Assembly (NCBI GenBank): GCA_045532735.1
Contig: JAZSGL010000091.1
Span: 29,275-93,274 of the forward strand
DNA from: Paludibacteraceae bacterium
GTDB lineage: Bacteria; Bacteroidota; Bacteroidia; Bacteroidales; Paludibacteraceae
Direction: 5' to 3'
Length of the DNA: 64,000 nucleotides
The position numbers were made by a program, and so were the translations under genes. This document shows positions 15,745 through 32,811 of the stretch, in pieces; position 1 is the first letter of the stretch, and each line of letters begins with the position of its first letter. The notes below the pieces were generated by a model that saw only the letters and a list, made by a program, of their open reading frames with translations, was not told the DNA's origin and ran no database searches.

Positions 15745-15846
15745 CGTCGCGCCAGGATGTTCTTATCTCCCTTCGGTCGAACGATCGCTTCGCGTACGAT
15801 TGGCGCGAAAGTTGTTTAAGTTGTCGTTATTATCAATCATTCTAGT
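15745..15846 (+). repeat. Module R1, long-loop copy; 102-bp direct repeat of 21694-21795
   Basis: Manual alignment gives 102 bp with 1 mismatch. The hairpin stem is tcgcgcca (15747-15754) / tggcgcga (15801-15808), followed by aagttgtttaagttgtcgttattatcaat. Confidence 0.9.
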
Positions 15847-15873: not shown

Positions 15874-15898
15874 CAGTCAATTACAGCTTTCACCATCC

Positions 15899-17002
15899 AT
15901 GCAAGACATCACCTACACATACCATACCTCTCACGCTGACGTCACCATCCGTGGATTCATCGCTTCGCTGCTCTTGCAGGGCGATCAATGGGATATCCGC
16001 CAACTAGAAGCCGACATTCGCGACTACCATCACCAGCAATACGAGCGTATTCATCCCATCATTGCGCTGCGGCAGGAGCTGCAATGGTGGTACGACTTTG
16101 TGGATGACGAACTGCTCTATGATTTTCCCCTACGCGACGAACTAGCCAATGCCGGCCTCATCTATCTGCATGCTCAAGCTAATCAGCATATTACACCCTT
16201 GTCAGATGCCGATAAGCTGGCCACCGAGATGGAGATCTATATCGACGATACGCATTATTTCTACAAACTCGATGATGCACTTGCTCTATTTGAGCAGGGC
16301 AGTGGGGCAGCCCCCACGATGCTACTCAAGGGGTTCCCAGCGCAGCTGCTCACCTATGCCGCCTGCACGACCATGGATACCTATATCCGTCAGGACTATA
16401 TAGCAGATCCTGTGACATGGGTGGATAATATGATAGGTTGGCTACAGTCACCCGCAGCCATAACGGTGCAACATCTGCAGTTCGACCTGCCCGACGTCTA
16501 TTCGCTCTATGAGTCCTATGTGGCAGATGCCCGAGCAAGACGAGAGGCGGAAAACCGTAGGCGTTATGAGAGTGGCGAACCACAGAAGCGGTATTTTATG
16601 ACCCACTTGCTCCAGCAGACCCAAGAAGACTGCCAGGAGGCCCAGCAGGTTTTGTCTGTTATTCTCAACCCGATGCAATATGCTGCCCTGCTGCGATATA
16701 TGGCGCAGGTGCAACAGTATATCCGCGATCATACGCAAACCAAACGCAAAGTGCGTTCCGATAAGCTGAGCCAGTATTATACGATATTCTCCAACTATCC
16801 ACATCATATGATCACCCGTCGCTTGCACGAGGCGGCTATGCATCCCACCGAGCCCGCGGCCGCGCTGGCGAAAGTCGTAAAGCAACTGCAAGCTAAAAAG
16901 AGGCTAGGGGATATTCGCCCACACAGTCATTTCATAGCGGTGGTGAACAAGACATTTGGTACATCCATCAAGCTGGATAGTTTCTCTAAGCATTTTCGGT
17001 GA
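15899..17002 (+). CDS. Hypothetical protein (367 aa), no recognisable domain
   Basis: Long ORF with its own -7 box and a terminator. No signal peptide. Gln/Tyr/His-rich, with a basic C-terminal third. Confidence 0.6.
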   Translation: MQDITYTYHTSHADVTIRGFIASLLLQGDQWDIRQLEADIRDYHHQQYERIHPIIALRQELQWWYDFVDDELLYDFPLRDELANAGLIYLHAQANQHITPLSDADKLATEMEIYIDDTHYFYKLDDALALFEQGSGAAPTMLLKGFPAQLLTYAACTTMDTYIRQDYIADPVTWVDNMIGWLQSPAAITVQHLQFDLPDVYSLYESYVADARARREAENRRRYESGEPQKRYFMTHLLQQTQEDCQEAQQVLSVILNPMQYAALLRYMAQVQQYIRDHTQTKRKVRSDKLSQYYTIFSNYPHHMITRRLHEAAMHPTEPAAALAKVVKQLQAKKRLGDIRPHSHFIAVVNKTFGTSIKLDSFSKHFR

Positions 17003-17003
17003 T

Positions 17004-17028
17004 AAAGGCGGGATCATCCCCCGCCTTT
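17004..17028. terminator. Hairpin shared by the convergent genes 15899-17002 and 17014-17343
   Basis: aaaggcggg / cccgccttt, a 9-bp stem with a 7-nt loop. It overlaps the last codons of the minus-strand ORF. Confidence 0.7.
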
Positions 17029-17343
17029 CATATGTTTAGATATATAGTAACCACGGATGGATACCTTACCTCCTGGTTTGTCGCGTTGCGCTAGATACTC
17101 TTGCTCTAGCGCTAGCCACTCAGGCGAACCTTTGACTAACGCATTATACGCCTTTGAGGCGGCGGACAAGCGCAAAGTGCCTGCTTTCTCCGCAGGAGAC
17201 TGCGGATTCTTCTTGTAATCACGTGGATGATTCTTATGAGCGGTGTACTGTGTACCATAGCGCTCCATGAGCCACCAATCGGCTCCTCCAAAGAGTTTAC
17301 CTACTGCCTTTAGCAGCGGTGCTGATAATTTAATAATTGCCAT
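17014..17343 (-). CDS. Hypothetical small protein (109 aa)
   Basis: An internal ATG at 17343 (MAIIKLSAPLLKAVGKLFGG...) was chosen, because the upstream part of the 170-aa track ORF runs through repeat modules R6 and R2. Confidence 0.45.
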   Translation of the reverse strand: MAIIKLSAPLLKAVGKLFGGADWWLMERYGTQYTAHKNHPRDYKKNPQSPAEKAGTLRLSAASKAYNALVKGSPEWLALEQEYLAQRDKPGGKVSIRGYYISKHMKGGG

Positions 17344-17408
17344 CGTAATAATTTTTAAGGGACCTATATACTTGTAGACACTTGTTATTGTAATGATTAT
17401 TCTTTTGT

Positions 17409-17505
17409 CTTGCCCACCAATGTAGCTTGCTGCATTCATTTGGGCAGCAAAAGAAGTTTCCTTGAATTGACGATAATTGACATCCAAATTGATTTTAATT
17501 GTCGT
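17409..17505 (+). repeat. Module R6 (stem-loop plus ttgacgataattgaca words); second copy at 19596-19692
   Basis: Both copies have the outer stem tgccca...tgggca, then gaattgacgataattgaca..aattga..taattgtc. Both lie 5' of minus-strand genes. Confidence 0.7.
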
Positions 17506-17518
17506 AAAAATAAAAATC

Positions 17519-17546
17519 AGTGTCAACTCGTATATAGTTCCCGTAA
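17519..17546 (+). repeat. Module R2 (gtgtcaactcgtatatagttccc); other copies at about 17879, 32361 and 32579
   Basis: Four copies of a roughly 24-bp word AGTGTC..(C/G)TCGTATATAGTTCC with few mismatches, all intergenic. Confidence 0.7.
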
Positions 17547-17607
17547 TTTTTAATAATATTTTACAATTTTGTCTAATTTTTGGATAGCACTATCCCTTTC
17601 CCCGCCG

Positions 17608-17727: not shown

Positions 17728-17870
17728 CGCGAGATGTATTGTTTCTCGCGCTGATGTTGTTGATTTAAGTTGTTTGAGTTGTTGTAAATTATTTTTCCTT
17801 GTCGCGCCAGGAAGTTGATTGGCGCGAAAGTTGTTTAAGTTGTCGTTATTATAAATAATTCTAGTTGTTT
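17728..17870 (+). repeat. Two tandem R1-like units (short-loop form)
   Basis: The first hairpin is gcgcgaga/tctcgcgc (17728-17752) followed by GTTGTT-rich sequence. The second is tcgcgcca (17802-17809)/tggcgcga (17820-17827) followed by aagttgtttaagttgtcgttattataaat. Confidence 0.75.
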
Positions 17871-17915
17871 CGGTTGTAGTGTCAGCTCGTATATTGTGCC
17901 CTAAAAATTTAATCA

Positions 17916-17986
17916 GGAACTTCGGGAATTTCAGGAAAATTAGGAATTTCGAAATTCCTTAAATTCCCGAAATTCCTTAAATTCCT
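17916..17986. repeat. Eight 9-bp GGAAWTTYN units, four in each orientation, centred on the palindrome AGGAATTTCGAAATTCCT
   Basis: Left arm: ggaacttc, gggaatttc, aggaaaatt, aggaatttc. Right arm: gaaattcct, taaattccc, gaaattcct, taaattcct. The array abuts the stop of the DUF3987 gene. Confidence 0.85.
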
Positions 17987-19382: not shown

Positions 19383-19478
19383 CTGCTAAAATTTCTTTTC
19401 GCAATGCTTGCCACGCATTATAGGATATCCATTTTTATAAGTCGTAGATAACCAATAATTTGCCCAACCATTAGGTAT

Positions 19479-19594
19479 CTTATAAATCGGATATAAATGC
19501 TTATAAATCGGATATGAGATTTGGCGGTGTAGGGTAGTGTAGGATGGTTTAGAGTGGTGTAGTATGGTGTAGTATGGTGTAGAGTGGTTTTGAG
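19479..19594 (+). repeat. Iteron-like arrays: 2 x 21-bp (cttataaatcggatat...) then 7 x 10-bp (TGGTGTAGNN)
   Basis: The 21-bp units start at 19479 and 19500. The 10-bp units are cggtgtaggg, tagtgtagga, tggtttagag, tggtgtagta, tggtgtagta, tggtgtagag and tggttttgag (19525-19594). Confidence 0.85.
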
Positions 19595-19785
19595 TTTGCC
19601 CATCAATGCAAGTTTTTGCATTCTTTTGGGCAAAAACAAAAGTTAATCTATGAATTGACGATAATTGACAACCTAATTGACAATAATTGTCTTTAAAAAT
19701 TAATTCTCGATTTTTATTTATTTTTGTAGCTCGGAACGAGCGTATTTTTGTTTCTCTAAAATAATTTTCTACAATTTTGGTTAAT

Positions 19786-19894
19786 TTTTGGATCTCTTCC
19801 ATCCCTTATTCCCTTAAAAAATCGCATGTTTTTCAGAAAAACCAACAAAATTTATAAATAAATTTGTTTGTTCCGAAAAATTGTATTACCTTTG
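19786..19894 (+). promoter_or_regulatory. Promoter/operator module P, copy A (drives abiEi)
   Basis: 109 bp, about nine-tenths identical to 21945-22053. It contains the palindromes tttttcagaaaaa and aacaaaatttat..ataaatttgtt (19844-19868) and ends in the -7 box TAccTTTG (19887-19894). Confidence 0.8.
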
Positions 19895-19938
19895 CTGCAG
19901 ATTTCCCAAATATGTAACAAAAATGGGAAAAATTACCA

Positions 19939-20544
19939 ATGAAAAATAGCGTTGCAAATACTATTAAACAACTGATTATCAGCAGAGGACGTGCTAAGTT
20001 TTGGTTTGTTGATGATTTTGTTGCTATCGGAAGTAATGACTCTGCTCGTAAGGCACTTCAGCAACTGACCAACGAGCAGATGTTGCTCCGTATTTGCCAT
20101 GGTGTTTATTATTATCCAAAGATAGATCGCGAACTGGGATTAGGTGTCTTAATGCCTTCTAAAGAGAGTACGGCTCTTGCAATAGCCAAACATGCAGGGC
20201 TGAAAATTGTTCCTACAGGAGCATTTGCGCTGAATGCGTTGGGGATAACCACTCAAATGCAAACTGTTGTTGCTTTCTTGACTAATGGTCGCGCACGTCA
20301 AATTGATTTGGGAAACGAAAGATACATCAAGTTTTTTCATTCATCCTCGCAACGACTTTTTGAATACAAATCCTATCGCATGATACTCATCATCCAAGCT
20401 ATGACCGAATTGGGCGAAAATGGCTTGACCGAGGATGTTCGATCAAAGCTGAAAGAACAAGTGTCGTTGGTATCAGAAAGGGATTTTATCCATGACATCA
20501 AACTGGCTCCTATATGGGCGCAAACAATACTCAAAGAACTATGA
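19939..20544 (+). CDS. AbiEi-family (DUF6088-like) type IV antitoxin / transcriptional regulator
   Basis: 201 aa. The pattern CHGVYYYPK...PTGAFALNALGITTQ is typical of AbiEi-like antitoxins. Its stop overlaps the start of the AbiEii gene (ATGA at 20541-20544). Confidence 0.7.
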   Translation: MKNSVANTIKQLIISRGRAKFWFVDDFVAIGSNDSARKALQQLTNEQMLLRICHGVYYYPKIDRELGLGVLMPSKESTALAIAKHAGLKIVPTGAFALNALGITTQMQTVVAFLTNGRARQIDLGNERYIKFFHSSSQRLFEYKSYRMILIIQAMTELGENGLTEDVRSKLKEQVSLVSERDFIHDIKLAPIWAQTILKEL

Positions 20545-21551
20545 TTTACACCGATTTGCAAACAGAGAGGATGCTTGCCGTCCTTGATCAAGTTAGTGCC
20601 CAAACAAACTCTACTCAACAGACCATAGAGAAAGACTGGTGGGTGACTCAGGTACTACGGGTGCTATTTTCTCTTCCCTACGCCGCGCATTTATCGTTCA
20701 AAGGCGGAACATCGCTTAGCAAAGCGTGGAATATCATTGAGCGTTTCTCCGAGGATGTGGATATCGCCATTAGTCGGGAGTTTCTTGGCTTCGTTGGCGA
20801 ACTGAGTCGCACACAAGTGAGCGATAAGTTGCGCCGTGCGGCATGCTCGTTTGTACGCGATAAGATGCAGAATGACCTTAGAAAGGGTCTGGTAGCATTG
20901 GGTATTGCACCTGAAAAGTTTAATGTGTATGTGAATATCACTTCGGTAAGTACAACTGATCCTGAGGTTATATACATTGATTATGAATCTGTTCTTCCTA
21001 ATTCGGAATATATTGCACATACCGTCAAAGTAGAGGTAGGTGGTCGTAGTATGGCGGAGCCTGTGCAGAGTGTATCTATTCAATCGCAGATAGATGCGGT
21101 CCTTTCACAAGCTATGATAGTGCAGCCTGCGTTTGATGTTAATGTGGTGATTCCAGAACGAACGTTCTTAGAGAAGGTGATGTTGCTGCATGAGGAGTTC
21201 GCAAAACCTACGACTGAAGTACGCACGGAGCGTATGAGTCGACATCTATATGACTTGCACCGCATGTTGCATACAGATATTGCACAGCGTGCTTTAAGCG
21301 ACGAAGCACTCTATCGGGCAATAGTAGAACATCGCCGCAAGTTTATTAATCTGCGTGATTTTGACTACGATACACTTTATCCTAAGCACCTATCCTTGGA
21401 GATTCCTACCAATGTGATAGATCTGTGGCGCAAGGATTACGAAACGATGCAGCGTACCATGATCTATGGTCATTCTGTTGCTTTTGACGAATTGCTCGCA
21501 GAGATTCGCCAACTTAATAGATGTATCAGCCAACTGCCTTATCAGAAGTGA
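20541..21551 (+). CDS. AbiEii/AbiGii-family nucleotidyltransferase toxin (DUF1814)
   Basis: NTase motif FKGGTSLSKAWNIIERFSEDVDIAI. The ATG at 20541 was chosen over the track start because of the ATGA overlap with abiEi. Confidence 0.85.
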   Translation: MIYTDLQTERMLAVLDQVSAQTNSTQQTIEKDWWVTQVLRVLFSLPYAAHLSFKGGTSLSKAWNIIERFSEDVDIAISREFLGFVGELSRTQVSDKLRRAACSFVRDKMQNDLRKGLVALGIAPEKFNVYVNITSVSTTDPEVIYIDYESVLPNSEYIAHTVKVEVGGRSMAEPVQSVSIQSQIDAVLSQAMIVQPAFDVNVVIPERTFLEKVMLLHEEFAKPTTEVRTERMSRHLYDLHRMLHTDIAQRALSDEALYRAIVEHRRKFINLRDFDYDTLYPKHLSLEIPTNVIDLWRKDYETMQRTMIYGHSVAFDELLAEIRQLNRCISQLPYQK

Positions 21552-21693: not shown

Positions 21694-21795
21694 CGTCGCG
21701 CCAGGATGTTCTTATCTCCCTTCGGTCGAACGATCGCTTCGCGTACGATTGGCGCGAAAGTTGTTTAAGTTGTCGTTATTATCAATAATTCTAGT
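21694..21795 (+). repeat. Module R1, long-loop copy; direct repeat of 15745-15846
   Basis: 102 bp with 1 mismatch. The stem is 21696-21703 / 21750-21757. Confidence 0.9.
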
Positions 21796-21815
21796 TGTTT
21801 TTTAGTTGTAGTGTC

Positions 21816-21944
21816 TAAGATTCAGGCGCGAGCGACTGCGCAGTGCCGGTGGTAATTTATTTCGGAGAACACAGAAAAGTGCGGATCATAGCGTAAAAAA
21901 GATTTATTAGATTTCTGCGAGCCTGCGAGCAAGGAGATACATAA
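21816..21944 (+). repeat. Module R4 (about 130 nt); second copy at 32443-32578
   Basis: Shared blocks are taagattcag, ggtggtaatttatt.cggag, aaaagatt.at.agatttctgc and aggagata. Between these blocks the two copies carry hairpins of different sequence at the same position. Confidence 0.6.
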
Positions 21945-22053
21945 TTTTGGGATCTATTCCATTCCTGTTCCCTTAAAAAATCACATGTTTTTCAGAAAAA
22001 TTAACAAAATTTATAAATAAATTTGTTTGTTCCGAAAAATTATATTACCTTTG
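21945..22053 (+). promoter_or_regulatory. Promoter/operator module P, copy B (drives the leader of the 2684-aa gene)
   Basis: It has the same palindromes as copy A (22003-22027). The -7 box TAccTTTG lies at 22046-22053. Confidence 0.8.
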
Positions 22054-22161
22054 TCGCCTAATACACAAAGGATTAACTCGTATCTGATTAGATATAATAC
22101 CATGAAAGTCAAGACATTTTGCCTTGCTTATGTAAAATCTTTCGTTTCCGCCCTTGAAAAT

Positions 22162-22170
22162 GGGGGGGGG
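22162..22170 (+). repeat. Homopolymeric G9 tract in the leader
   Basis: The sequence reads t ggggggggg t. The tract lies inside a 54-codon upstream ORF (ATG at 22102, stop at 22264-22266). Confidence 0.95.
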
Positions 22171-22223
22171 TATTTGTCTTATAAATTTCCAGAACTCCGT
22201 TCTAATCAAGTATTTTCAACCTC

Positions 22224-22255
22224 GCAGAGCCTTTTTACAAAGGGTTCTGCTTTTT
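22224..22255 (+). terminator. Intrinsic-terminator-like hairpin inside the leader, 34 nt before the giant-gene ATG
   Basis: gcagagcctttt / aaagggttctgc, a 12-bp stem including two G-T pairs, with a 3-nt loop followed by ttttt. Confidence 0.65.
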
Positions 22256-22288
22256 GTATGTTGTGATAAAATTTAATACCAAATATTT

Positions 22289-25200
22289 ATGAAAAAATTT
22301 ACTCTATTTTTAGTTGCGATGACGATGAGTTTGTTATCGTTTGCGCAAACTCAGATGAGCGGTACTTACACTGTGGGTACGGGTGGCTCTTATGATTATA
22401 GCTCTATGGCAGATGCTGGTATGGCAATCAAGGATGCTGAGTTTACAGGTGATGTAACTTTGCTTATCTGTACAGACTTAACCGAAACCATCAACACGGG
22501 TATCGTAAATAAGTCCAATTACACATTGACAATTCGTCCTGACAAGGATGAAAATCGTACCATTACCTATACTACAGCAACGGACAATACAGGTCCTACT
22601 GGTGTTTTTGTGATAGGTGGTGATATGACCAAGACTCCTGGTTCTACCATCGGTTGGGCTTCTGTTCCTACAAAGAATGTAATCGTCGATGGTGCTGCCG
22701 AAGGCAAAACTACACCTCGATTGAAAATTACAAACAATAAATGGGGCACTAATGTTTTGCTATATGGTGATGTACAAGATGTGATTATTAGGAATTGTAT
22801 TCTTGTTGGTAGAAGTGGTTCTAGCACAGCATATTCGTTGGCGTTTCGTTCTGAAAACTATTCGAAAACATCTAAAAATATTGGTCCTAAAAACTGCGTA
22901 GCAGAAAATTGCATTATAGAATCTGCATCAACACAGTCTCAAGTAGTATATTGTCAAGGAAACCAAGCCAATTCATACGCAGGTTATCCTACTAACATTA
23001 CCATTCGAAACTGTAGCATAACATCACATCTTCGTGGCATATTTTTGTATGGTGTAAACAACTTTGATATGGAAGGCTGTGTGCTTAAAATGTTAGAAAC
23101 TACGGCAGGATATATGTGTCACGGAATTTTAGGTACTACAGTTAGAGGAACTATTAATGTAAGAGGTAATAAGTTTATCAAAAACTCTACAAAAAATACT
23201 AGTGCAGGAGAATATGGATTGCAAACTATTACAGCTTCTGGTGGAGCAACTGAATGGGTGATTGAAAATAACTATTTTGCTGGTTATGATGCGTTAGCTT
23301 CTGGAACTACGTCAAAGGAGTCTCGTTTGGTAGGTATTCGTTGCGGTGATTATTGTGTAGTTCGTCATAATACATTCCATATGCCAAAACTAACCTACGC
23401 TCCTGGTACTTCACTCGTAGGTACACACGCTGTAGCATTATTATGGTTAGCAGGTTCTCATAAATATCCTGTTCAAAACAACATCTTCGTTTGCGAAGAG
23501 ACCGCAGCTAATGTTAGTTTGATTCGAGGAGGTTTGAATGAAAATGTAACTGGTAATGTATTCTACCACAATGGCGGAAAGGCAGCTATTGTAGCCGCTG
23601 CTCCTTCTTGTATGACCTTTGCAGATTTAGAAACATCATATCCTACTCAAGCAGCTACTTCAAAATGGAAGAATGTTACTTTTACAGATGCAGCAAATGG
23701 TGATTTGTCTTTAGCAGGACTCTCTGACGGAGATTTTGATTTAGCAGTTGATCGTCTTGCTGATGTGCTCACAGATATTGAAGGGAAAACTCGTGGTGAG
23801 AAAACACATGCAGGTGCATATGAAGGAACTTTCCGAGAGCCATTACCTTCTTCTATCTCTTTGAATGCTTATCCAGTGCAAGATTATAGTGCAAGTATCG
23901 TTGGTACAATGAAACGTGCTATTCAAAACGGTGAGAACACCATCGTGTTAACTCACGAAGCAGATGGTACCCCTCATATCTATAATATCGCACATGCTGC
24001 AAAGACCGTTACCGAAATTTCTCAAGAGGGCGTGGTGGCTGTAGACACAGAAAACTTGGGAGATTATTTATCTATATCAGACATCGCTTTGACTGAAGAT
24101 GGTAAATTAATAGCTTCCAACTATATGCGTTGCGAACAAGGAACAACACCTGCTACTGGATACAAGGTCGGTGAGATTCGTTACTACATTTGGAGTGATA
24201 TTAATGGTGCACCTACTCGTTGGTTTACAACCAATAGAACAGCAAACTCGACATATGCAGATGTTAGTTATACATTTGCCATAAAAGGTACATCTACGAA
24301 TGCGCAAGTAATGTCAACTGCTGTACACAATAGCAATCGTGCTGCTCGTATTAACTTGCACACAGTGGTAGGCGGTGTAGAAACTGCATATCATCGTTTT
24401 GGTCTCCATACCACAGCCTCTGAGTATACCGAAGCAAAACAAGGTTTGAACTTCCAACTTACAGCAACTCCTTTAGATAATGTATGGACACTGGAGGGTG
24501 AGTTGACAGATGCAACTTCATTTGCGGTTCCTGCTACACTTGGAGCAGAGTACAATGGAACTGCTCTTAATGGAACAAACCTCGGACAGAAATATAATGG
24601 CGTAAGTTATTTGCCAAACTATAATGATCATCACCTCATGGTGGCTCCTTATGCCGATGGATCGGGTAAATTAGCCGGTGTAAAAGTATTGGGTATTACA
24701 TATGGTTTTGATAACGCTATTGCTATAGCAACAAATACAAATTTATTAAATACTATTGACGCTACCGCCGCAGCCGCTACTGCGTATGTAGATGGTGATG
24801 GTGACTTGACTATTTATCTCATTGCGGATGCCAAAGTTTATGCGTTTAGTCAAAAAGCCCCTATCGCTGACTTCTGTACCGTTACGGCTACAGCTGGCGA
24901 GGGTGGCTCAGTAGAAGGTAGTGGTACATACGAAGCTAACACAATAGTTACTCTTACCGCAACCCCTGCAGAGCACTATACTTTCAAAAATTGGACTGTT
25001 GCAGGTTCTGAAGTTTCAACCACCGCAACATATTCGTTTGAAGTGACTACTGATGTAGAGGTGACTGCCAACTTTAAAGAAGATGATAAATTCACTATCA
25101 ATGCACATGCAGATCATACTAGCAAGGGTTATGTAACTGGTGGTGGAGAAAATATCTATGTTGGTACTGAACTACTGCTCAAGGCTACAGCGAAGAGCGG

Positions 25201-28200
25201 TTACTATTTTACTCAATGGAATGATGGTAATACCAACAACCCACGCACCATTACTGTAACCGATGATGCAGAGTATATAGCAGAGTTTGCAGAGGCATAT
25301 CCACGCGTATATGCATATGGTCTTAATGTGGTAAATAATGGAGATGATACTTATACATTCTCATTTAAGCCAAATACTGATGCAATAAGCGGTAATTTGC
25401 TTCTATATAGTGAGGATGGAACAACTGTGGCAAAAACAGTAGCGATTACAACGCCAATTATTGCCAACACAGTAAATTCTATTACTCTCTCTAAGACCGA
25501 CTTGCCTGATCAGTCTGACATTCCTTGGGCTATAGAATTAAGCGGCAATGCTATTCCTGCATTTGCAGAGACATTCGCTGATAGTGACCTTCGTTTCGCA
25601 AGAGCTCATGCAGTTATAGATAATAGTCCAGAGTCTGAATATTTTGGACGAGTATATGTAGCAGACCGCCGCAAAACCAAATCAGACAGTAAAGTATATG
25701 TTTATAATCCAGACTTTACAGATTTTACGAACACAAACTTAGGATTGGCTACTGCTGGTTATTCTCGTCCTGCAGTTGGAGCGGATGGTACATTGTATTT
25801 AACAGGTTATACAGATGGCGCTGAAGCAGGTATCTTCGTTGTGGATCCTGCCGATTTGACCAAATGTACACAATTCTTTAATGGTACATACGATTCTGAT
25901 GGTTTGTATAAAAATAATGGTAAAGAAATAGGTAGTTCTACATCAGGTGTTGGCGTATATGGCGCAGGTAAAGATGCTGTACTATACACCATGATGGAAG
26001 ATGGAAGCAATGCCAATTTCGATTCAGGCAAACAACCTATTGTCAAGTATCAAATTGGTCAAGAGAATGGTACTGTGCTTAAGCAGTGGAGCGACGAGCC
26101 AACATGGTGGGTAAATTATCCTGCTAAGGCAGCAGATAAGAGCTACAACTTTGGTAACAATGATTTTGCCGCTACAGCGAAAGGAGTGTGGGTAAGTCAA
26201 AACAAGTCTAATCCTGCTGATCGTCCTGAAATAGCCTTTGTGGATAAAACAGGTACTATTCGGTTCATGCAAAATAGCAAGCCAAGTTTAGGCGGTGGTA
26301 TGACTGTTAATGCTGACAATACCGCATTATATATTGTAGAAGATAGCAAAATTTTGGAATATGCTATTACATGGAACGAAAATACACCATCTCTGACCCT
26401 GTCAAATACATATCCTATAAGTCTTCAATATATTTCTACATTATCCGTAGATTATGCAGGAAATCTTATTGCTTGCGCAGGTACAACTTATGGCACTACA
26501 GACAACAATGTTATGAAAGTGGTTCGTTTTACTCTCCCTACAGACAACAATACTACTATTGTGCCAGCGGCTAAAGCAAAATCACTCAAGTTAGGCAATC
26601 GATATACCGTGACTGTAGATATAAACGATGAGTCTATGGGTGAAGTGATTGGAGCGGGTTTGTATAAGGAAGGTGAAATAGCGACACTTGCTGCAGCTCC
26701 AGTAGCCAACCACCGCATCGTGAATTGGAAGAACGGAGAAGAAGTTCTCTCAACAGATTTGACATGTTCGTTTGAGGTTACTGAGGATGTTACAATCAAT
26801 GTAACTTTTGAAAAGATTCCACAATATACAGTCACTACTGTAGCATCTCCTGATGGTAAAGGAACGATCATAGGTGGTGGTACATATAATGAAGGTACAG
26901 AGGTAGAGTTGAAAGCTACAGCTCATACAGGTTACACATTTGTGAGATGGGAAGATGATGACACTGCAGAGGCTACTCGTACTATTACAGTTACTGGCCC
27001 AGTTACCTACACTGCAATTTTTGACAAAGTATCTCCACGCGCATGGGCGTATGATTTAAGGAAAGGTGAAGATGGCGAAAACTATACGTTCACCTTCAAG
27101 ACTACTAGCGCAGGTACAGCTACCTTAATCTTTAAAGATAAAGATGGTAACACATTAGACTTTGGCGCACACACCGCAACTGCTACTACCGCTGAAGAAA
27201 AAACAATTACGATTGCAAAATCCACCTTTGAAGATGCTACCAAAGATATTTACTGGTCAGTACAGATGGATGGTGCTGCAATTGAGAATATGGTGGAAGT
27301 TACCGATCCTGCTGCTGGAATTTACAACTTCTATGTCCCTCAAGGTATTGCTGTGGACAATAATACCAATTCTAACTATTTCGGACAAATATATGTTGCA
27401 CAAGCAACAAATGGTGCTAGTGATGGCGGATCCGAAATGGCTAAAAATCAGACAGTTGGTTTGTTTGTATATGATCAAAAACTAACATTGAAAAATACGA
27501 ACTATGAGGGTATTGCTCCTCAAAATGTAGCGTTCAATACAGGAAATCCTATTGGTAGTATAGATGCTATTCGTCAACAAATGCACCGTATAGCTGTAGA
27601 TCCTATTACTAGTGAAGTAGCCTTTGCTTATTACAAATCTGATGCTACCCCTGCTACGGCTATATATGCAATGAATCCTACCGAATTGCCAGGCAACGCG
27701 ACCAATTTGATAAATGGTGCTAGTATAACTAAAGCAAACTCATTGTGCTATGATGAAAAAGGTGCGTTATATGTAATGGATAATGCTAATACTGGTACTG
27801 TAGGAGGACAAATCTATAAGTGTACAAAGGATGGAGTTGAGCTATTTGCTAAACATCAAGCAGAATGCCAATGGGCTGTTTATGACAATGCAATGGCTTC
27901 CGACGGTCGTGGTGGTCTATGGATTGCGCAAAATCGTTACGGATACGATTATCCTATTCTTTCTCACGTAAACAAAGATGGAGTGGTAGATTTCGCTGTT
28001 AAAGAAAATCTAAATAGTTGGTTCCCTAATAATAATACAGGTTCTTCATATCGTGGACAATTGGCTTACAACCTGAGTGAGAATATCTTGGCATTTGCTG
28101 GTAATAAGATGGTTACCCTGTTTACCGTAGAATATGACGGAGATGCTAAACCAACCATCAACAAATTAATGTCAACACCTTTGCTAGGTGGTGGTAATAT

Positions 28201-30343
28201 TGATGGTGTGGCATTTGACTATGCAGGTGACTTGTATGTGGCTTCTGCAAGTGCTGAGCGCTTGTATAAGTTTGTAGTGCCTACCAACAACAACACTTGC
28301 ACCGTACCTGCTCCTGAGTCACAAGTAATCCAAAAGGAGACACGATACAAAGTGGAGGTTGTGGCTAATCCAGTAGAAGGTGGTTCGGTATCAGGTGGCG
28401 GCGAAGCTGTCGCAGGAGCTCAAGTGGCAGTAAGTGCAACCGCCAATACGGGCTATCGCTTTGTAAACTGGACTGAGGGTAGTGATGAGGTATCTACCGA
28501 TGCAAGTTTCTCTTATACCGTCCCTGCTGCTGATGTGACGCTTATCGCTAACTTTGAGTTAATAACTTATACCCTGATAACATCTACCAACGATGAGAAT
28601 AAGGGTACAGTTAGCGTAGATGGTGTATGCACTCATGGATCCACTGTAACACTCACCGCTACTCCAGAAGAAGGCTACAAACTCCTCTACTGGAGCGATC
28701 GTTCTACAGAGAACCCACGCACCATTACGATGACCAAGAATGAGGCTATTTCTGCATACTTCGTGAAGGAATATGACATGGAGCCTACCTTTAAAATTGA
28801 GAAAGTTTGGGAGAACACCCAAGTGCCTGGAAGTGCTGATGGTTACCAAGCAGTAGGTTGGGATGGTAAGATCTATATGCAAAACAAAACAGCAGGAAAG
28901 ATTAAGATATATAGCAATGGTACAGATGCTGCTGTAGATTATGCTACGTCTAATACTTCTGGTCAGCAAATCGCAGTGGATGAAGCTGGTAATTTGATTG
29001 TATTCAACGCGACATTCTACACAATAACACCTAATGCTATCATAATTTATCCAAAAGGTAGTACAACGGGCACAGCTATTTCCTTTACATTGCCTTATCC
29101 AGAGCGTTGCGACTTTATCTCTGCTTCTGGTGATATTTACAGCGCAGAAGGTGGATATGTGTATTTCTATTGCCAAAATAAGAATGCCGTTAATCGTGTG
29201 AAAATTACCAATGGAGCACTCGCTTCGGTAGATGCTATAGGTAACACAGAAAAACCAGCAACTAGTGTTAGTCATGTTATGGTGGATATTTTTGGCAACT
29301 TGGCTGCTCATTGTCGCTCAACTGCAGTTTACGCCATCAACTCTTATACAGGTGAAACGACTGCATTTACCACTACCCTTTCTGGTGTCAAACTGAGCAC
29401 ACTCGGTGGCTGCACATTTGAATTAGGTGGCAAAGAATTGTGGGCATATAATGTAGGTACTACAAACTATAATAGTGAGTGGAATTTGTACAACATGACC
29501 GATAAGGTATTTATGTCAAACGAAACACTCTATGCTAAAGATAAAGATAGCAGGAAAACTACAGGACCTGCTAACTGGCTCAATGTACAAGTAGTAGATG
29601 AGAATACTGCTTACATTTATCAATTCTGCCCAGAAGTAGCAGTAGCTGTTTGGAAAGTAAGTATTGAAACTGAAGTAAATGTCACTATCGACGAAGACGC
29701 TGATAATACTACTGCACTCGCTCCATACGAGGGTGAGACAGTTACAGCTACAGTCACTCGCAACTTCGGTGCGAATAAGATCTTGACTGTCACATTGCCA
29801 TTCGATATGAGCGCATCACAAATCAGCAATCACTTCGGTAATGCTACTGTATACGAGTTCTACAATGTGGTAGATGCAGGCGAAGAACTTCACTTGCAAT
29901 TCGCTCATACTAATTCTATCGAAGCAGGTAAGCCATATATTCTCCAAACTACAACTAGTGGGTATGATGCCGAGGATGGATTTACCATCGAAGATGTGAC
30001 CATCAATACTGAGCCTACTCATGTTAAGAGAGGAGATATCACGATGGTACCTGTATTAGATGGTGGTGGCACATTAAATCAACCAACCCAATACTATCTT
30101 TCTGACAATGCATTGTATTGTGCTGGTGACTACGAGCGACCATTGCCAGGTTTGCGTGCTTTCTTTACTTCGGCATCGTCAACTCCAATCCGCGCACGCG
30201 TGATATTCGATGACAACGGGGCAACATCTATCCCAACGGTGATCGCTCCTGAGACGAAAGCGCAAAAGATAATCCAGGATGGACGACTCTTTATCATCCG
30301 CGGTGAACACCAATACAACGCACAAGGTCAAATGATTGAATAA
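22289..30343 (+). CDS. Giant (2684 aa) secreted protein: beta-helix head, three pairs of InlB-B-repeat-like domains, Ig/propeller supermodules, C-terminal sorting-like tail
   Basis: The signal peptide is MKKFTLFLVAMTMSLLSFAQT. PbH1-like turns (NCILVGRS, NCIIESAS, IRNCSITSH, VRGNKFIKNS, IENNYFAG, VRHNTFHM, VQNNIFVCE) end in DIEGKTRGEKTHAGAYEG. The repeat pairs lie at 24875-25288, 26600-27028 and 28343-28768. The tail is KIIQDGRLFIIRGEHQYNAQGQMIE. Confidence 0.9.
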   Translation: MKKFTLFLVAMTMSLLSFAQTQMSGTYTVGTGGSYDYSSMADAGMAIKDAEFTGDVTLLICTDLTETINTGIVNKSNYTLTIRPDKDENRTITYTTATDNTGPTGVFVIGGDMTKTPGSTIGWASVPTKNVIVDGAAEGKTTPRLKITNNKWGTNVLLYGDVQDVIIRNCILVGRSGSSTAYSLAFRSENYSKTSKNIGPKNCVAENCIIESASTQSQVVYCQGNQANSYAGYPTNITIRNCSITSHLRGIFLYGVNNFDMEGCVLKMLETTAGYMCHGILGTTVRGTINVRGNKFIKNSTKNTSAGEYGLQTITASGGATEWVIENNYFAGYDALASGTTSKESRLVGIRCGDYCVVRHNTFHMPKLTYAPGTSLVGTHAVALLWLAGSHKYPVQNNIFVCEETAANVSLIRGGLNENVTGNVFYHNGGKAAIVAAAPSCMTFADLETSYPTQAATSKWKNVTFTDAANGDLSLAGLSDGDFDLAVDRLADVLTDIEGKTRGEKTHAGAYEGTFREPLPSSISLNAYPVQDYSASIVGTMKRAIQNGENTIVLTHEADGTPHIYNIAHAAKTVTEISQEGVVAVDTENLGDYLSISDIALTEDGKLIASNYMRCEQGTTPATGYKVGEIRYYIWSDINGAPTRWFTTNRTANSTYADVSYTFAIKGTSTNAQVMSTAVHNSNRAARINLHTVVGGVETAYHRFGLHTTASEYTEAKQGLNFQLTATPLDNVWTLEGELTDATSFAVPATLGAEYNGTALNGTNLGQKYNGVSYLPNYNDHHLMVAPYADGSGKLAGVKVLGITYGFDNAIAIATNTNLLNTIDATAAAATAYVDGDGDLTIYLIADAKVYAFSQKAPIADFCTVTATAGEGGSVEGSGTYEANTIVTLTATPAEHYTFKNWTVAGSEVSTTATYSFEVTTDVEVTANFKEDDKFTINAHADHTSKGYVTGGGENIYVGTELLLKATAKSGYYFTQWNDGNTNNPRTITVTDDAEYIAEFAEAYPRVYAYGLNVVNNGDDTYTFSFKPNTDAISGNLLLYSEDGTTVAKTVAITTPIIANTVNSITLSKTDLPDQSDIPWAIELSGNAIPAFAETFADSDLRFARAHAVIDNSPESEYFGRVYVADRRKTKSDSKVYVYNPDFTDFTNTNLGLATAGYSRPAVGADGTLYLTGYTDGAEAGIFVVDPADLTKCTQFFNGTYDSDGLYKNNGKEIGSSTSGVGVYGAGKDAVLYTMMEDGSNANFDSGKQPIVKYQIGQENGTVLKQWSDEPTWWVNYPAKAADKSYNFGNNDFAATAKGVWVSQNKSNPADRPEIAFVDKTGTIRFMQNSKPSLGGGMTVNADNTALYIVEDSKILEYAITWNENTPSLTLSNTYPISLQYISTLSVDYAGNLIACAGTTYGTTDNNVMKVVRFTLPTDNNTTIVPAAKAKSLKLGNRYTVTVDINDESMGEVIGAGLYKEGEIATLAAAPVANHRIVNWKNGEEVLSTDLTCSFEVTEDVTINVTFEKIPQYTVTTVASPDGKGTIIGGGTYNEGTEVELKATAHTGYTFVRWEDDDTAEATRTITVTGPVTYTAIFDKVSPRAWAYDLRKGEDGENYTFTFKTTSAGTATLIFKDKDGNTLDFGAHTATATTAEEKTITIAKSTFEDATKDIYWSVQMDGAAIENMVEVTDPAAGIYNFYVPQGIAVDNNTNSNYFGQIYVAQATNGASDGGSEMAKNQTVGLFVYDQKLTLKNTNYEGIAPQNVAFNTGNPIGSIDAIRQQMHRIAVDPITSEVAFAYYKSDATPATAIYAMNPTELPGNATNLINGASITKANSLCYDEKGALYVMDNANTGTVGGQIYKCTKDGVELFAKHQAECQWAVYDNAMASDGRGGLWIAQNRYGYDYPILSHVNKDGVVDFAVKENLNSWFPNNNTGSSYRGQLAYNLSENILAFAGNKMVTLFTVEYDGDAKPTINKLMSTPLLGGGNIDGVAFDYAGDLYVASASAERLYKFVVPTNNNTCTVPAPESQVIQKETRYKVEVVANPVEGGSVSGGGEAVAGAQVAVSATANTGYRFVNWTEGSDEVSTDASFSYTVPAADVTLIANFELITYTLITSTNDENKGTVSVDGVCTHGSTVTLTATPEEGYKLLYWSDRSTENPRTITMTKNEAISAYFVKEYDMEPTFKIEKVWENTQVPGSADGYQAVGWDGKIYMQNKTAGKIKIYSNGTDAAVDYATSNTSGQQIAVDEAGNLIVFNATFYTITPNAIIIYPKGSTTGTAISFTLPYPERCDFISASGDIYSAEGGYVYFYCQNKNAVNRVKITNGALASVDAIGNTEKPATSVSHVMVDIFGNLAAHCRSTAVYAINSYTGETTAFTTTLSGVKLSTLGGCTFELGGKELWAYNVGTTNYNSEWNLYNMTDKVFMSNETLYAKDKDSRKTTGPANWLNVQVVDENTAYIYQFCPEVAVAVWKVSIETEVNVTIDEDADNTTALAPYEGETVTATVTRNFGANKILTVTLPFDMSASQISNHFGNATVYEFYNVVDAGEELHLQFAHTNSIEAGKPYILQTTTSGYDAEDGFTIEDVTINTEPTHVKRGDITMVPVLDGGGTLNQPTQYYLSDNALYCAGDYERPLPGLRAFFTSASSTPIRARVIFDDNGATSIPTVIAPETKAQKIIQDGRLFIIRGEHQYNAQGQMIE

Positions 30344-30587: not shown

Positions 30588-32018
30588 TTATTGAATGTGA
30601 ATTTCAAACAAATCGTCTAAGACTACTTCTGATTGCACAAGACCTACGTATGCGTTTTGTCGTACACCATAAGTGGTAATTAGGGTAGGGAAGATGGCAT
30701 ATTTTGTGCCAGTTTCCGAAACAAAATCACTCATGCGTATGCGTAGTTTCATATCTTCCTCTTTAGTGATAGTATAAGGCGAGGTACTATACTTAACCTC
30801 ACACAAGTTAATCACTCTATCTGCACGCTCTATCAATAAATCAATTTGAGCTCCTTCGGTACTATCTTTGCTACGCCATGAGTAATATTCTGTAGCTATT
30901 CTATCAATACCCAAAACATGCTTAATCTGTTGGATATGCGCCATACATACGCGCTCAAATGCCAGCCCTAACCATGTATTCATCAATGGCGTTTGCAGAT
31001 TATGACTCCAATAATGCTCATCGTTGATAGGACGAGTGAGGAATGTATTATGGAAAATAGTAAAGAAATCTACCAACTGATAGAGCCCGTCTGTCTTTTT
31101 TACGCGTTTAGATTTCACGAAATAGTAGCGCACGAAATCACATTTGATAAGGTTCTGTAGATACTCAGAGAAATGTCCATTATCCTTTTTATTTAGCGCC
31201 GTTAAGATCTCATCTCTAGACATGCCTTTTCTATTGGAAGAAAGTACACGCACAATCTCTAAATATGGTTCTGGAGACTTAAAGAGCGAAGAAAACAATC
31301 GCTTATATTCGGTTTGTAAAGAAGCATTCTCAGAAAAATACAATCGATCAACCGCCTGTGTGATACTTTCGCCCTTCTTGAGCAAACTTAGATAATATGG
31401 TACTCCACCCATGATCATGTAGATTTGTAGGATAGATAATCTATCCCATTTTATCTGCATAGATTGAAGCATTTGTTCGGTTTCCCCAAGCGAGAAAGGA
31501 TGTAGATGTATCTCATGCGTAATGCGGTTGTGTAAACCACCATAGTTATCTACGATGTTCTTGGTCATCCAAGTGGTGGCGCTGCCGCAAACGATTAAGA
31601 GCACTTGCGAGTGCTTCTGCCCCCAGCTATTCCAAAAATGACTAAAAGCGTTGATAAATCCAGTACGAGGGGTGTCAAAACAAGGCAGTTCGTCAATGAA
31701 GATCACGCAGCGCTTATCTGTAGTCAATTGCTTTTCCAATAATTCACCTAGGGTGTAGAATGCTTCTAACCAACTACCAAATAACTCGCCTTGATAGCCT
31801 ATTTGGCGCATTGCAAGCACAAATGCAGACATCTGTTCCAAATGTGAACCACCTAAAATACCACTCACAGAAAAAGTGTATTGACGATTAAAAAATTCAT
31901 CAATCAAATAGGTTTTTCCGATTCGCCTACGACCATAAACTGCAATAAACTCTGGTTTGCCAGAATTGTAAAACTCTTGAAGTTGCATGATTTCATGCTT
32001 GCGGCCTATTAATTCCAT
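30588..32018 (-). CDS. AAA-type ATPase (archaeal-ATPase-like) with C-terminal PD-(D/E)xK-like motif
   Basis: Walker A YGRRRIGKT, Walker B VIFIDELP and C-terminal IDLLIERADRVINLCEVKYS (D...E.K). Confidence 0.85.
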   Translation of the reverse strand: MELIGRKHEIMQLQEFYNSGKPEFIAVYGRRRIGKTYLIDEFFNRQYTFSVSGILGGSHLEQMSAFVLAMRQIGYQGELFGSWLEAFYTLGELLEKQLTTDKRCVIFIDELPCFDTPRTGFINAFSHFWNSWGQKHSQVLLIVCGSATTWMTKNIVDNYGGLHNRITHEIHLHPFSLGETEQMLQSMQIKWDRLSILQIYMIMGGVPYYLSLLKKGESITQAVDRLYFSENASLQTEYKRLFSSLFKSPEPYLEIVRVLSSNRKGMSRDEILTALNKKDNGHFSEYLQNLIKCDFVRYYFVKSKRVKKTDGLYQLVDFFTIFHNTFLTRPINDEHYWSHNLQTPLMNTWLGLAFERVCMAHIQQIKHVLGIDRIATEYYSWRSKDSTEGAQIDLLIERADRVINLCEVKYSTSPYTITKEEDMKLRIRMSDFVSETGTKYAIFPTLITTYGVRQNAYVGLVQSEVVLDDLFEIHIQ

Positions 32019-32076: not shown

Positions 32077-32180
32077 TGAAACCGGGCATTTTTTGAATAT
32101 TTTTATCAAATTCCGCCCACTTTCAGATTGAAACCGGGCATTTTTTGAACTTTTTTGTCAAATTCCGCCCACTTTCAAGG
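32077..32180 (+). repeat. Tandem duplication, 2 x 52 bp
   Basis: The unit tgaaaccgggcattttttgaa.atttt..tcaaattccgcccactttca occurs twice (32077-32128 and 32129-32180) with a few mismatches. Confidence 0.9.
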
Positions 32181-32261
32181 TCTAAACGTGGGTGACTTGT
32201 TCCCAATAATTTTGTTTAATTTTCTACAATTTTGTATAATTTTTGGATGCTACTTTCTCCT

Positions 32262-32610: not shown

Positions 32611-32697
32611 GTTTCCGATTAGCCATATATTTGATAGATACATCTATCATTTTTACAAAAAAGTATTCGTTTTTTTGCAGTTGTGCATATTTTTTTG

Positions 32698-32705
32698 TAC
32701 CTTTG
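32698..32705 (+). promoter_or_regulatory. -7 box TAccTTTG for pgk
   Basis: Exact match about 107 nt upstream of the ATG at 32812. Confidence 0.55.
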
Positions 32706-32811
32706 TAGCCAAATGTGGGTACTGGGCTTTATATTTCACAAAAAACAACTCTACTCCACACTACTCAATACTACTCAACACTGACAATACTAACAACTAA
32801 ATTATACGATT

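What the first reader, a model, noticed from the sequence alone, without database searches (positions are those of the whole stretch)
21945..22053. Same 109-bp promoter/operator module drives both the abiEi-abiEii pair and the giant-gene leader
The segments 19786-19894 and 21945-22053 are about nine-tenths identical by manual alignment. Both end in TAccTTTG. Both contain two dyads: tttttcagaaaaa, and aacaaaatttat..ataaatttgtt (19844-19868 and 22003-22027). The second dyad overlaps the expected -33 region.

AbiEi antitoxins are known to autorepress their operon by binding inverted repeats in the promoter. If AbiEi binds this dyad, the 2684-aa surface protein would be under control of a toxin-antitoxin regulator. 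That would link an abortive-infection module to cell-surface remodelling.
Basis: partly seen in the sequence, partly recalled or inferred. Interest (0 to 1): 0.62.

Follow-up and report, generated by a model that had tools for sequence, protein, structure and literature searches.

The report
Reused promoter module, not AbiEi operator
The same ~100-bp promoter really does sit in front of both the AbiE toxin-antitoxin pair and the giant surface-protein gene, but comparison with related genomes indicates it is an interchangeable promoter cassette in a recombination-prone island, and that the antitoxin's likely binding site lies just outside it and is missing from the giant gene.

Summary
Window 19782-19894 and 21942-22053 are 92% identical over 113 columns. 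Both end in a consensus Bacteroidetes promoter: TTTG, 20 nt, TAccTTTG.

- Near-identical abiEi genes (about 90% aa) in at least three other genomic contexts lack the module. Each has a different promoter.
- Homologues of the giant gene (92-96% aa) also have other promoters.
- In the window's own lineage the module heads four cargos: two abiEi alleles only 47% identical, the giant-gene leader, and a PDC-S27-like ATPase. Homology always breaks right after the -7 box.
- The dyads inside the module are no better than chance for this A/T-rich sequence (8-11% of shuffles).
- What travels with abiEi is an inverted repeat at or just after the -7 box: TTTCCCA-N15-TGGGAAA at 19902-19930. The second allele type has TGTCCCC-N15-GGGGACA. 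This repeat occurs once in the window and is absent from the giant-gene leader.

The module is a lineage-restricted, low-copy portable promoter inside a mosaic of repeated intergenic modules. Co-regulation of the surface protein by AbiEi is unlikely.

A side finding is that the giant-gene leader carries a length-variable poly-G tract and a terminator hairpin.

The parts
19794..19894 (+). Promoter module P, copy A, heading abiEi-abiEii.
   Evidence: 92% identical to copy B. Boundaries come from the seven-copy alignment A3.
21953..22053 (+). Promoter module P, copy B, heading the leader and the giant gene.
   Evidence: An orthologous copy lies in L002 at 1919-2020.
19863..19894 (+). Core promoter of copy A: -33 TTTG (19863-19866), 20-nt spacer, -7 TACCTTTG (19887-19894).
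   Evidence: Pattern scan gives 11 hits against 0.8 expected, with the same spacing as the pgk promoter at 32674-32705. The same 21-mer, then 6 nt, then TACCTTTG is a tRNA-Ser promoter in unrelated contigs.
22022..22053 (+). Core promoter of copy B: -33 TTTG, 20-nt spacer, -7 TACCTTTG.
19902..19930 (+). TTTCCCA-N15-TGGGAAA inverted repeat in the abiEi 5' UTR. It is the candidate AbiEi operator, or alternatively a 5'-UTR hairpin, and lies outside module P.
   Evidence: It is conserved with the gene in four promoter contexts and in homologues at 61-69% aa identity, with one compensatory C-G to T-A change. It occurs only once in the window.
19939..20544 (+). abiEi, a DUF6088-type antitoxin and putative repressor.
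   Evidence: Pfam DUF6088 4e-40. PADLOC AbiEi 5e-50. The AlphaFold2 model (pLDDT 91.8) matches 6Y8Q and 1ZEL best.
20514..21551 (+). abiEii, a DUF1814 nucleotidyltransferase toxin. It overlaps abiEi by 31 nt.
   Evidence: Pfam AbiEii 6e-35. PADLOC 7e-98.
19727..19793 (+). Module X: a terminator-like hairpin followed by TTCTACAATTTTGGTTAATTTTTGGAT. It is a separate, abundant repeat abutting copy A.
   Evidence: Copies also lie at 17544-17594 and 32207-32257. Metagenome depth is up to about 10-20x the flanks in three of the four metagenomes, with no excess in the fourth.
21847..21952 (+). Z-type flank abutting copy B. The same flank precedes the module in L008.
22054..22288 (+). Leader of the giant gene. 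It holds a small ORF (22103-22266), a poly-G tract G9 (22162-22170), and a terminator hairpin (22224-22250) followed by a T-run (22251-22255).
   Evidence: It is conserved in L002, L039 and L043. Poly-G length varies. There is no Rfam match.
22289..30343 (+). Giant 2684-aa protein with InlB B-repeat (Flg_new_2) domains.
   Evidence: Pfam Flg_new_2 5.6e-69.

Best explanation
Module P is a portable promoter of about 100 bp: a sigma-ABfr-type core (-33 TTTG, -7 TAccTTTG) plus about 70 bp of A/T-rich upstream sequence. It belongs to an uncultured Paludibacteraceae lineage found in bovine and other gut metagenomes.

It is one of several repeated intergenic modules that tile a low-GC accessory and defence island lying between a tonB-like gene and pgk. 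In this lineage recombination has placed P in front of several unrelated transcription units, always joined right after the -7 box. The two copies flanking abiE are the footprint of that cassette shuffling.

AbiEi most likely autoregulates through a different element, an inverted repeat with a 15-nt spacer at or just downstream of the -7 box. That repeat is inherited with each abiEi allele and is absent from the giant-gene leader. The giant gene therefore shares a promoter with abiE but not, by this evidence, its repressor.

Shown: the sequence identity, the promoter consensus, the cargo diversity, the absence of P from other abiE and giant-gene loci, and the co-inheritance of the repeat with its type-specific arms.

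Inferred: promoter activity, recombination as the cause of the duplication, and the repeat being the operator.

Cargo diversity:
- Seven P copies have sharp boundaries and four cargos: abiEi type 1, abiEi type 2, the giant-gene leader and a PDC-S27-like ATPase.
- The two abiEi types are 47% identical.

Absence of P elsewhere:
- abiEi type 1 at about 90% aa sits in three other contexts with unrelated promoters. Homology starts at the -7 box.
- Giant-gene homologues at 92-96% aa have other promoters but keep the leader.
- P is low-copy, at about 0.4-4x the depth of the adjoining abiEi sequence (mostly about 1-2.5x), while the neighbouring modules X, B and R1/Z reach several-fold to about 20-fold the flanking depth.
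- Scans of species-representative genomes, metagenomes and viral contigs found P only in L002, L008 and L012.

The inverted repeat:
- It is TTTCCCA-N15-TGGGAAA for type 1 and TGTCCCC-N15-GGGGACA for type 2, at the same position.
- It shows one compensatory change, and 93% of cells are paired.
- It occurs once in the window.
- Known AbiEi proteins bind inverted repeats overlapping the promoter or transcription start and do not cross-bind non-cognate sites (PMC7319586).
- The window protein has the AbiEi fold.
Against: - No transcription start or binding data exist. The RNA runs are assembled contigs and do not resolve 5' ends.
- All P copies come from close relatives. The conservation of the 70 bp upstream of -33 could still reflect a binding site for some regulator, conceivably even AbiEi at low affinity.
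- The searches of genome and metagenome collections used exact 21-23-mers, so diverged P copies would be missed.
- The copy number of P in the source genome outside this window is unknown.
- The repeat alone is only marginally unusual (28 of 500 shuffles). Its covariation rests on one compensatory change among six distinct sequences. It could act as an RNA hairpin rather than an operator.
Confidence: 0.72

Rival explanations
1. AbiEi binds the dyads inside P, notably the one over -33. It thereby represses both its own operon and the giant surface-protein gene.
For: The dyads exist, and one overlaps -33. AbiEi-family antitoxins autorepress through inverted repeats in their promoters (PMC7319586). 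The protein has the AbiEi fold.
Against: The dyads are no better than chance. P is absent from the other abiEi type 1 loci. It is shared by a 47%-identical allele and by an ATPase gene. A gene-linked, type-specific inverted repeat exists outside P. The right arm of the dyad is part of a generic -33 region that also occurs in a tRNA promoter.
Confidence: 0.06
2. P is the shared operator and promoter for another regulator, island-encoded or global, so that P-headed units (AbiE, the PDC-S27-like ATPase and the giant protein) form one small regulon.
For: The whole ~100 bp, not only the 32-bp core, is at least 90% conserved in seven copies with sharp 5' and 3' borders. An imperfect 52-bp palindrome spans 19829-19880. 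Two of the P-headed cargos are a defence system (AbiE) or a candidate one (PDC-S27-like ATPase).
Against: All copies are recent relatives, so their conservation carries little weight. The variable positions do not preserve the palindrome. No candidate regulator was identified, because the island ORFs at 15899-17002 and 17014-17346 have no family matches.
Confidence: 0.15
3. P is an ordinary high-copy dispersed repeat, such as a MITE or REP-like element, that merely happens to lie upstream of genes.
For: The surrounding intergenic DNA is full of repeats. Some of them are several-fold to about 20-fold over-represented in gut metagenomes.
Against: P itself lies at about 0.4-4x the depth of the adjoining abiEi sequence, mostly 1-2.5x. 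It has no terminal inverted repeats or target duplications. It always has the same orientation and always ends in a -7 box aimed at a gene. It is very rare in the collections scanned.
Confidence: 0.04

Closest known systems
Bacteroidetes primary-sigma (sigma-ABfr) promoters: -33 TTTG and -7 TAnnTTTG
   Same: Both P copies carry TTTG-N20-TACCTTTG. This is the same spacing as the window's pgk promoter and other promoters. The consensus is as described in PMC7366714.
   Different: Here the promoter is embedded in a ~100-bp block copied nearly verbatim in front of unrelated genes. No transcription start has been mapped.
AbiEi and Rv2827c autoregulatory operators (23-bp inverted repeats in PabiE and Prv2827c)
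   Same: The partner protein has the AbiEi fold, and the gene is followed by an overlapping abiEii. A gene-linked inverted repeat sits at the transcription-start region. That is where IR1-IR2 of PabiE and IR3-IR4 of Prv2827c lie, the pairs described as overlapping the transcription start (PMC7319586).
   Different: The candidate site is 7-8-bp arms with a 15-nt spacer, in a DUF6088-type protein that has never been studied. Binding is untested.
Integron-style platform, in which a resident promoter is followed by exchangeable cassettes
   Same: One promoter is followed by different cargo in different strains, with junctions at a fixed point right after the -7 box.
   Different: No integrase or attC-like site was identified. 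The fixed junction may simply reflect selection for functional promoter-gene fusions plus the shared 8-bp -7 box.
Variable defence islands with conserved flanks
   Same: AbiE and PDC-S27 candidate defence genes sit in a low-GC segment between housekeeping genes, and the content differs between strains.
   Different: The island also holds a giant surface protein. It is stitched together by a set of short repeated intergenic modules.

Membership tests
Bacteroidetes sigma-ABfr promoter | -7 box TAnnTTTG. | tested here: met
   TACCTTTG at 19887-19894 and 22046-22053.
Bacteroidetes sigma-ABfr promoter | -33 TTTG about 19-21 nt upstream of the -7 box. | tested here: met
   TTTG at 19863-19866 and 22022-22025 with a 20-nt spacer. 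The pattern is 13-fold enriched in the window.
Bacteroidetes sigma-ABfr promoter | Transcripts start a few nt downstream of the -7 box. | tested here: inconclusive
   Metatranscriptome contigs cover abiE and the leader but give no 5' ends.
AbiEi autoregulatory operator | Inverted repeat co-inherited with the abiEi gene. | tested here: not met
   The P dyads are absent from abiEi type 1 loci L015-L038. By contrast the repeat at 19902-19930 does meet this feature.
AbiEi autoregulatory operator | Site specificity follows the antitoxin type, because non-cognate sites are not bound. | tested here: not met
   The same P serves alleles 47% identical. The arms of the UTR repeat differ by allele type.
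AbiEi autoregulatory operator | Direct binding and repression by AbiEi. | not testable with these tools
   This needs EMSA or footprinting and reporter assays.
AbiE type IV toxin-antitoxin pair | Two-domain AbiEi antitoxin (winged HTH plus C-terminal domain) followed by a DUF1814 nucleotidyltransferase in one operon. | tested here: met
   PADLOC AbiEi 5e-50 and AbiEii 7e-98. Pfam DUF6088 and AbiEii. Foldseek top hits are 6Y8Q and 1ZEL. The genes overlap by 31 nt.
High-copy dispersed repeat (MITE or REP-like) | Many copies per genome. | tested here: not met
   Depth of P is about 0.4-4x that of the adjoining abiEi sequence, mostly 1-2.5x, while module X reaches up to about 10-20x in three of the four metagenomes. 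There are two copies in the window.
Invertible (phase-variable) promoter | Flanking inverted repeats and both orientations present in a population. | tested here: not met
   One search lists only A/T-rich or imperfect inverted pairs spanning P (9-10 bp exact, or 30 nt at 73% around copy A), not a clear flanking pair. Only one strand-switch joint appeared in the runs laid, between 19752 and 21618, and it does not bracket either P copy.

The most novel reading that the evidence does not exclude
Transcription units in this lineage (abiE alleles, a PDC-S27-like ATPase and a giant surface-protein gene) behave as cassettes. They are exchanged precisely at the -7 box or transcription start behind resident promoter modules such as P. 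This would be an integron-like, promoter-anchored cassette system in Bacteroidales that uses an unrecognised recombination mechanism and the repeated intergenic modules (X, B, R1, Y, Z) as its sites.
Probability: 0.1. Interest if true: 0.65.

Novelty: new member of a known kind. Interest (0 to 1): 0.3.

Why it matters
The evidence argues against that link.

What remains is useful in smaller ways.
- It gives a concrete, testable operator prediction for the unstudied DUF6088 branch of AbiEi antitoxins: type-specific arms, a 15-nt spacer, placed at the transcription start.
- It is a clear example of promoter and cargo modularity in a rumen Bacteroidales defence island.
- It warns that a shared promoter block is not evidence of shared repression.

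Tried and rejected
- Exact look-up of the window's AbiEi found nothing on record.
- A sequence search of AbiEi against the PDB found nothing. The fold search was needed instead.
- Rfam gave no match for the module, the UTR or the leader. It returned only sub-threshold miRNA-like hits on the palindrome at 17906-17983.
- The Ignavibacteria hits L001 and L003 to the 23-mer core are chance matches. They share no flanking similarity and have no abiE.
- Most hits to the 21-mer in metagenomes are unrelated, or are the tRNA-Ser promoter.
- Viral contigs hold neither P nor X.
- RNA runs could not give transcription starts.
- A bidirectional or invertible promoter was considered and rejected. The minus strand has no -7 box and P has no clear flanking inverted repeats.
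- The ORF at 19386-19802 on the minus strand, which overlaps the 5' edge of P, was considered and treated as unlikely to be a gene. It has no family match and runs through repeated modules.

Full report
**Observation**

The two segments are a genuine repeat. A blastn self-comparison pairs 19782-19894 with 21942-22053 at 92.0% identity over 113 columns. MAFFT shows one block with a 39-nt identical core. That core occurs exactly twice in the window and in none of 100 shuffles.

Both copies end in TACCTTTG, with TTTG 20 nt upstream. The strict Bacteroidetes promoter pattern TTTG-N18-21-TAnnTTTG occurs 11 times in the window against 0.8 expected. Almost every hit lies just upstream of a gene: the tonB-like gene, pgk, the PDC-S27 ATPase and others, as well as both copies. 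The consensus itself is the published sigma-ABfr motif (PMC7366714). Calling the module a promoter is therefore well founded, although no transcription start has been mapped.

The two dyads exist, but they are not statistically remarkable. The best palindrome in either copy is matched or beaten in 8-11% of dinucleotide-preserving shuffles.

**Genes**

- 19939-20544 is a DUF6088 protein (Pfam 4e-40). It matches PADLOC AbiEi at 5e-50.
- Its AlphaFold2 model has pLDDT 91.8. The best PDB matches are S. agalactiae AbiEi (6Y8Q) and Rv2827c (1ZEL).
- 20514-21551 is AbiEii (Pfam 6e-35, PADLOC 7e-98).
- 22289-30343 is a 2684-aa protein with InlB B-repeats.

**Context**

The segment from about 15.7 to 32.8 kb lies between a tonB-like gene and pgk. 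It has lower GC than its surroundings.

Its intergenic DNA is a mosaic of other repeats:
- 15745-15846 matches 21694-21795 at 99%.
- 17817-17883 matches 21747-21815.
- 17410-17510 matches 19596-19698.
- 17544-85, 19760-93 and 32207-48 match one another.
- 21625-65 matches 32384-424.

Runs holding this DNA are bovine and other gut metagenomes. Contigs from four of them were laid on the region. The X module reaches up to about 10-20 times the depth of its flanks in three of the four metagenomes and shows no excess in the fourth. The B and R1/Z modules reach several-fold to tens of times the flanking depth. P itself lies at about 0.4-4 times the depth of the adjoining abiEi sequence, mostly 1-2.5 times. 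P is therefore low-copy and embedded among abundant repeats.

**Relatives that carry the module**

The genome scan found one true homologue, L002, a Paludibacteraceae MAG. It has the same layout: P, abiEi, abiEii, P, leader, giant gene. The contig breaks inside the first P. The metagenome scan added L008 and L012.

Seven copies align with sharp borders:
- The 5' edge follows TAATTTTTGGATC, which is the end of either module X or the Z-type flank.
- The 3' edge is immediately after TACCTTTG.
- Beyond that point the sequences differ according to cargo. The cargos are abiEi type 1 (window, L012), abiEi type 2 (L002, L008; 47% identical to type 1), the giant-gene leader (window, L002), and in L012 a PDC-S27-like ATPase (PADLOC 2e-38).

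**Relatives that lack the module**

abiEi proteins 89-90% identical to the window's were traced to three other genomic settings:
- beside SusD/SusC, at the end of a VapE/Fic element;
- downstream of corA;
- downstream of another very large gene.

None has P. Each has its own promoter ending in a generic TAC(C/T)TTTG. Similarity to the window begins at that box and continues through the 5' UTR.

The same holds for the giant gene. Homologues at 92% (L039) and 96% (L043) keep the leader but have unrelated promoters, and the 77% homologues (L040-42) have neither P nor the leader.

A loose end in run X12 shows the abiEi type 1 UTR behind the promoter that L059 and L060 use for abiEi type 2. Promoters and cargos are thus shuffled at the -7 box.

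The P core (the 21-mer, then 6 nt, then TACCTTTG) is also the promoter of tRNA-Ser(UGA) in unrelated contigs. The right arm is therefore simply an extended -33 region.

**What travels with abiEi**

In all type 1 loci the UTR holds TTTCCCA-N15-TGGGAAA, at window 19902-19930. Homologues at 61-69% aa identity (L044, L045, L046) keep TTCCCA-N15-TGGGAA at the same place, 5-13 nt after their -7 box. L046 carries a compensatory C-G to T-A change. On six distinct sequences 93% of cells are paired, against 38-67% when the partner column is slid by 1-3 positions.

Type 2 genes have TGTCCCC-N15-GGGGACA overlapping the end of the -7 box (L059, L060). The P-driven type 2 copies keep it with one mismatch.

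The spacing and position are the same in both types, while the arms are specific to each type. This is what an operator co-evolving with its repressor should look like. It matches the position of the known AbiEi and Rv2827c sites, which do not cross-react (PMC7319586). An RNA-hairpin role is not excluded.

The type 1 motif occurs once in the window and is absent from the leader.

**Conclusion**

P is a portable promoter that recombination has placed in front of several cargos in one lineage. The two copies bracketing abiE are best read as the footprint of cassette insertion or exchange. Sharing P does not put the giant gene under AbiEi control. A regulator that binds the upstream 70 bp of P cannot be excluded.

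**Side finding**

The 235-nt leader is conserved with the giant gene. It contains:
- a poly-G tract that is G9 here, G8 in L039 and in some metagenome and metatranscriptome contigs, and A+G7 in L002;
- a small ORF whose part upstream of the poly-G tract is conserved, including a 3-nt indel;
- a strong terminator hairpin at 22224-22250 followed by a T-run.

RNAalifold also finds an outer helix with a G-C to C-G swap. There is no Rfam match. In my own reading of the sequence, two of the three frames downstream of the poly-G tract run through the terminator. Phase-variable attenuation is a reasonable hypothesis but is untested.

Noticed in passing
window 22054-22288 (poly-G 22162-22170; hairpin 22224-22250): The giant-gene leader has a length-variable poly-G tract (G7 to G9 among relatives and metagenome contigs). 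The tract lies inside a small ORF (22103-22266), upstream of a strong terminator hairpin, with no other promoter before the ATG. This could be phase-variable attenuation or an undescribed cis-regulatory RNA. There is no Rfam match.
   Followed up: partly
window 19902-19930; L059 about 2513-2541; L044, L045, L046 upstream regions: DUF6088-type abiEi genes carry an inverted repeat with a 15-nt spacer at or just after the -7 box. The arms differ between the two allele types (TTTCCCA/TGGGAAA and TGTCCCC/GGGGACA). This is a candidate operator for an unstudied AbiEi branch.
   Followed up: yes
window 15745-15846, 17817-17883, 21694-21815; 17410-17510, 19596-19698; 17544-94, 19752-802, 32207-57; 21625-65, 32384-424; 21847-83, 32476-512: The island's intergenic DNA is a mosaic of short repeated modules. 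Several are several-fold to tens of times over-represented in gut metagenomes. Module B holds three direct AATTGAC repeats.
   Followed up: partly
window 30588-32018 (-); L012 1-1092 (-): An ATPase matches the PADLOC candidate defence family PDC-S27 (3e-187). A different PDC-S27-like ATPase replaces the giant gene behind module P in contig L012.
   Followed up: partly
window 19527-19590; also 15890-15950 and 32740-32790 (opposite strand): Degenerate tandem repeats of roughly 10 nt (ggtgtag / tagtatggtg) lie next to the DUF3987 gene. Similar tracts lie at the island edges. They could be iterons or att-like sites of an integrated element.
   Followed up: no
window 17915-17986: A 72-nt near-palindrome (about 80% self-complementary) lies just downstream of the DUF3987 gene. 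It gave only sub-threshold miRNA-like Rfam hits.
   Followed up: no
window 32077-32177: Two tandem 49-nt repeats (94% identical, 52-nt period) sit directly upstream of the ATPase promoter at 32076-32045 (-).
   Followed up: no
window 20514-21551 compared with L002 708-1748: abiE alleles are mosaic between strains. abiEi and the 5' part of abiEii are diverged, while a central stretch and the 3' end of abiEii are nearly identical. This indicates recombination within the operon.
   Followed up: partly
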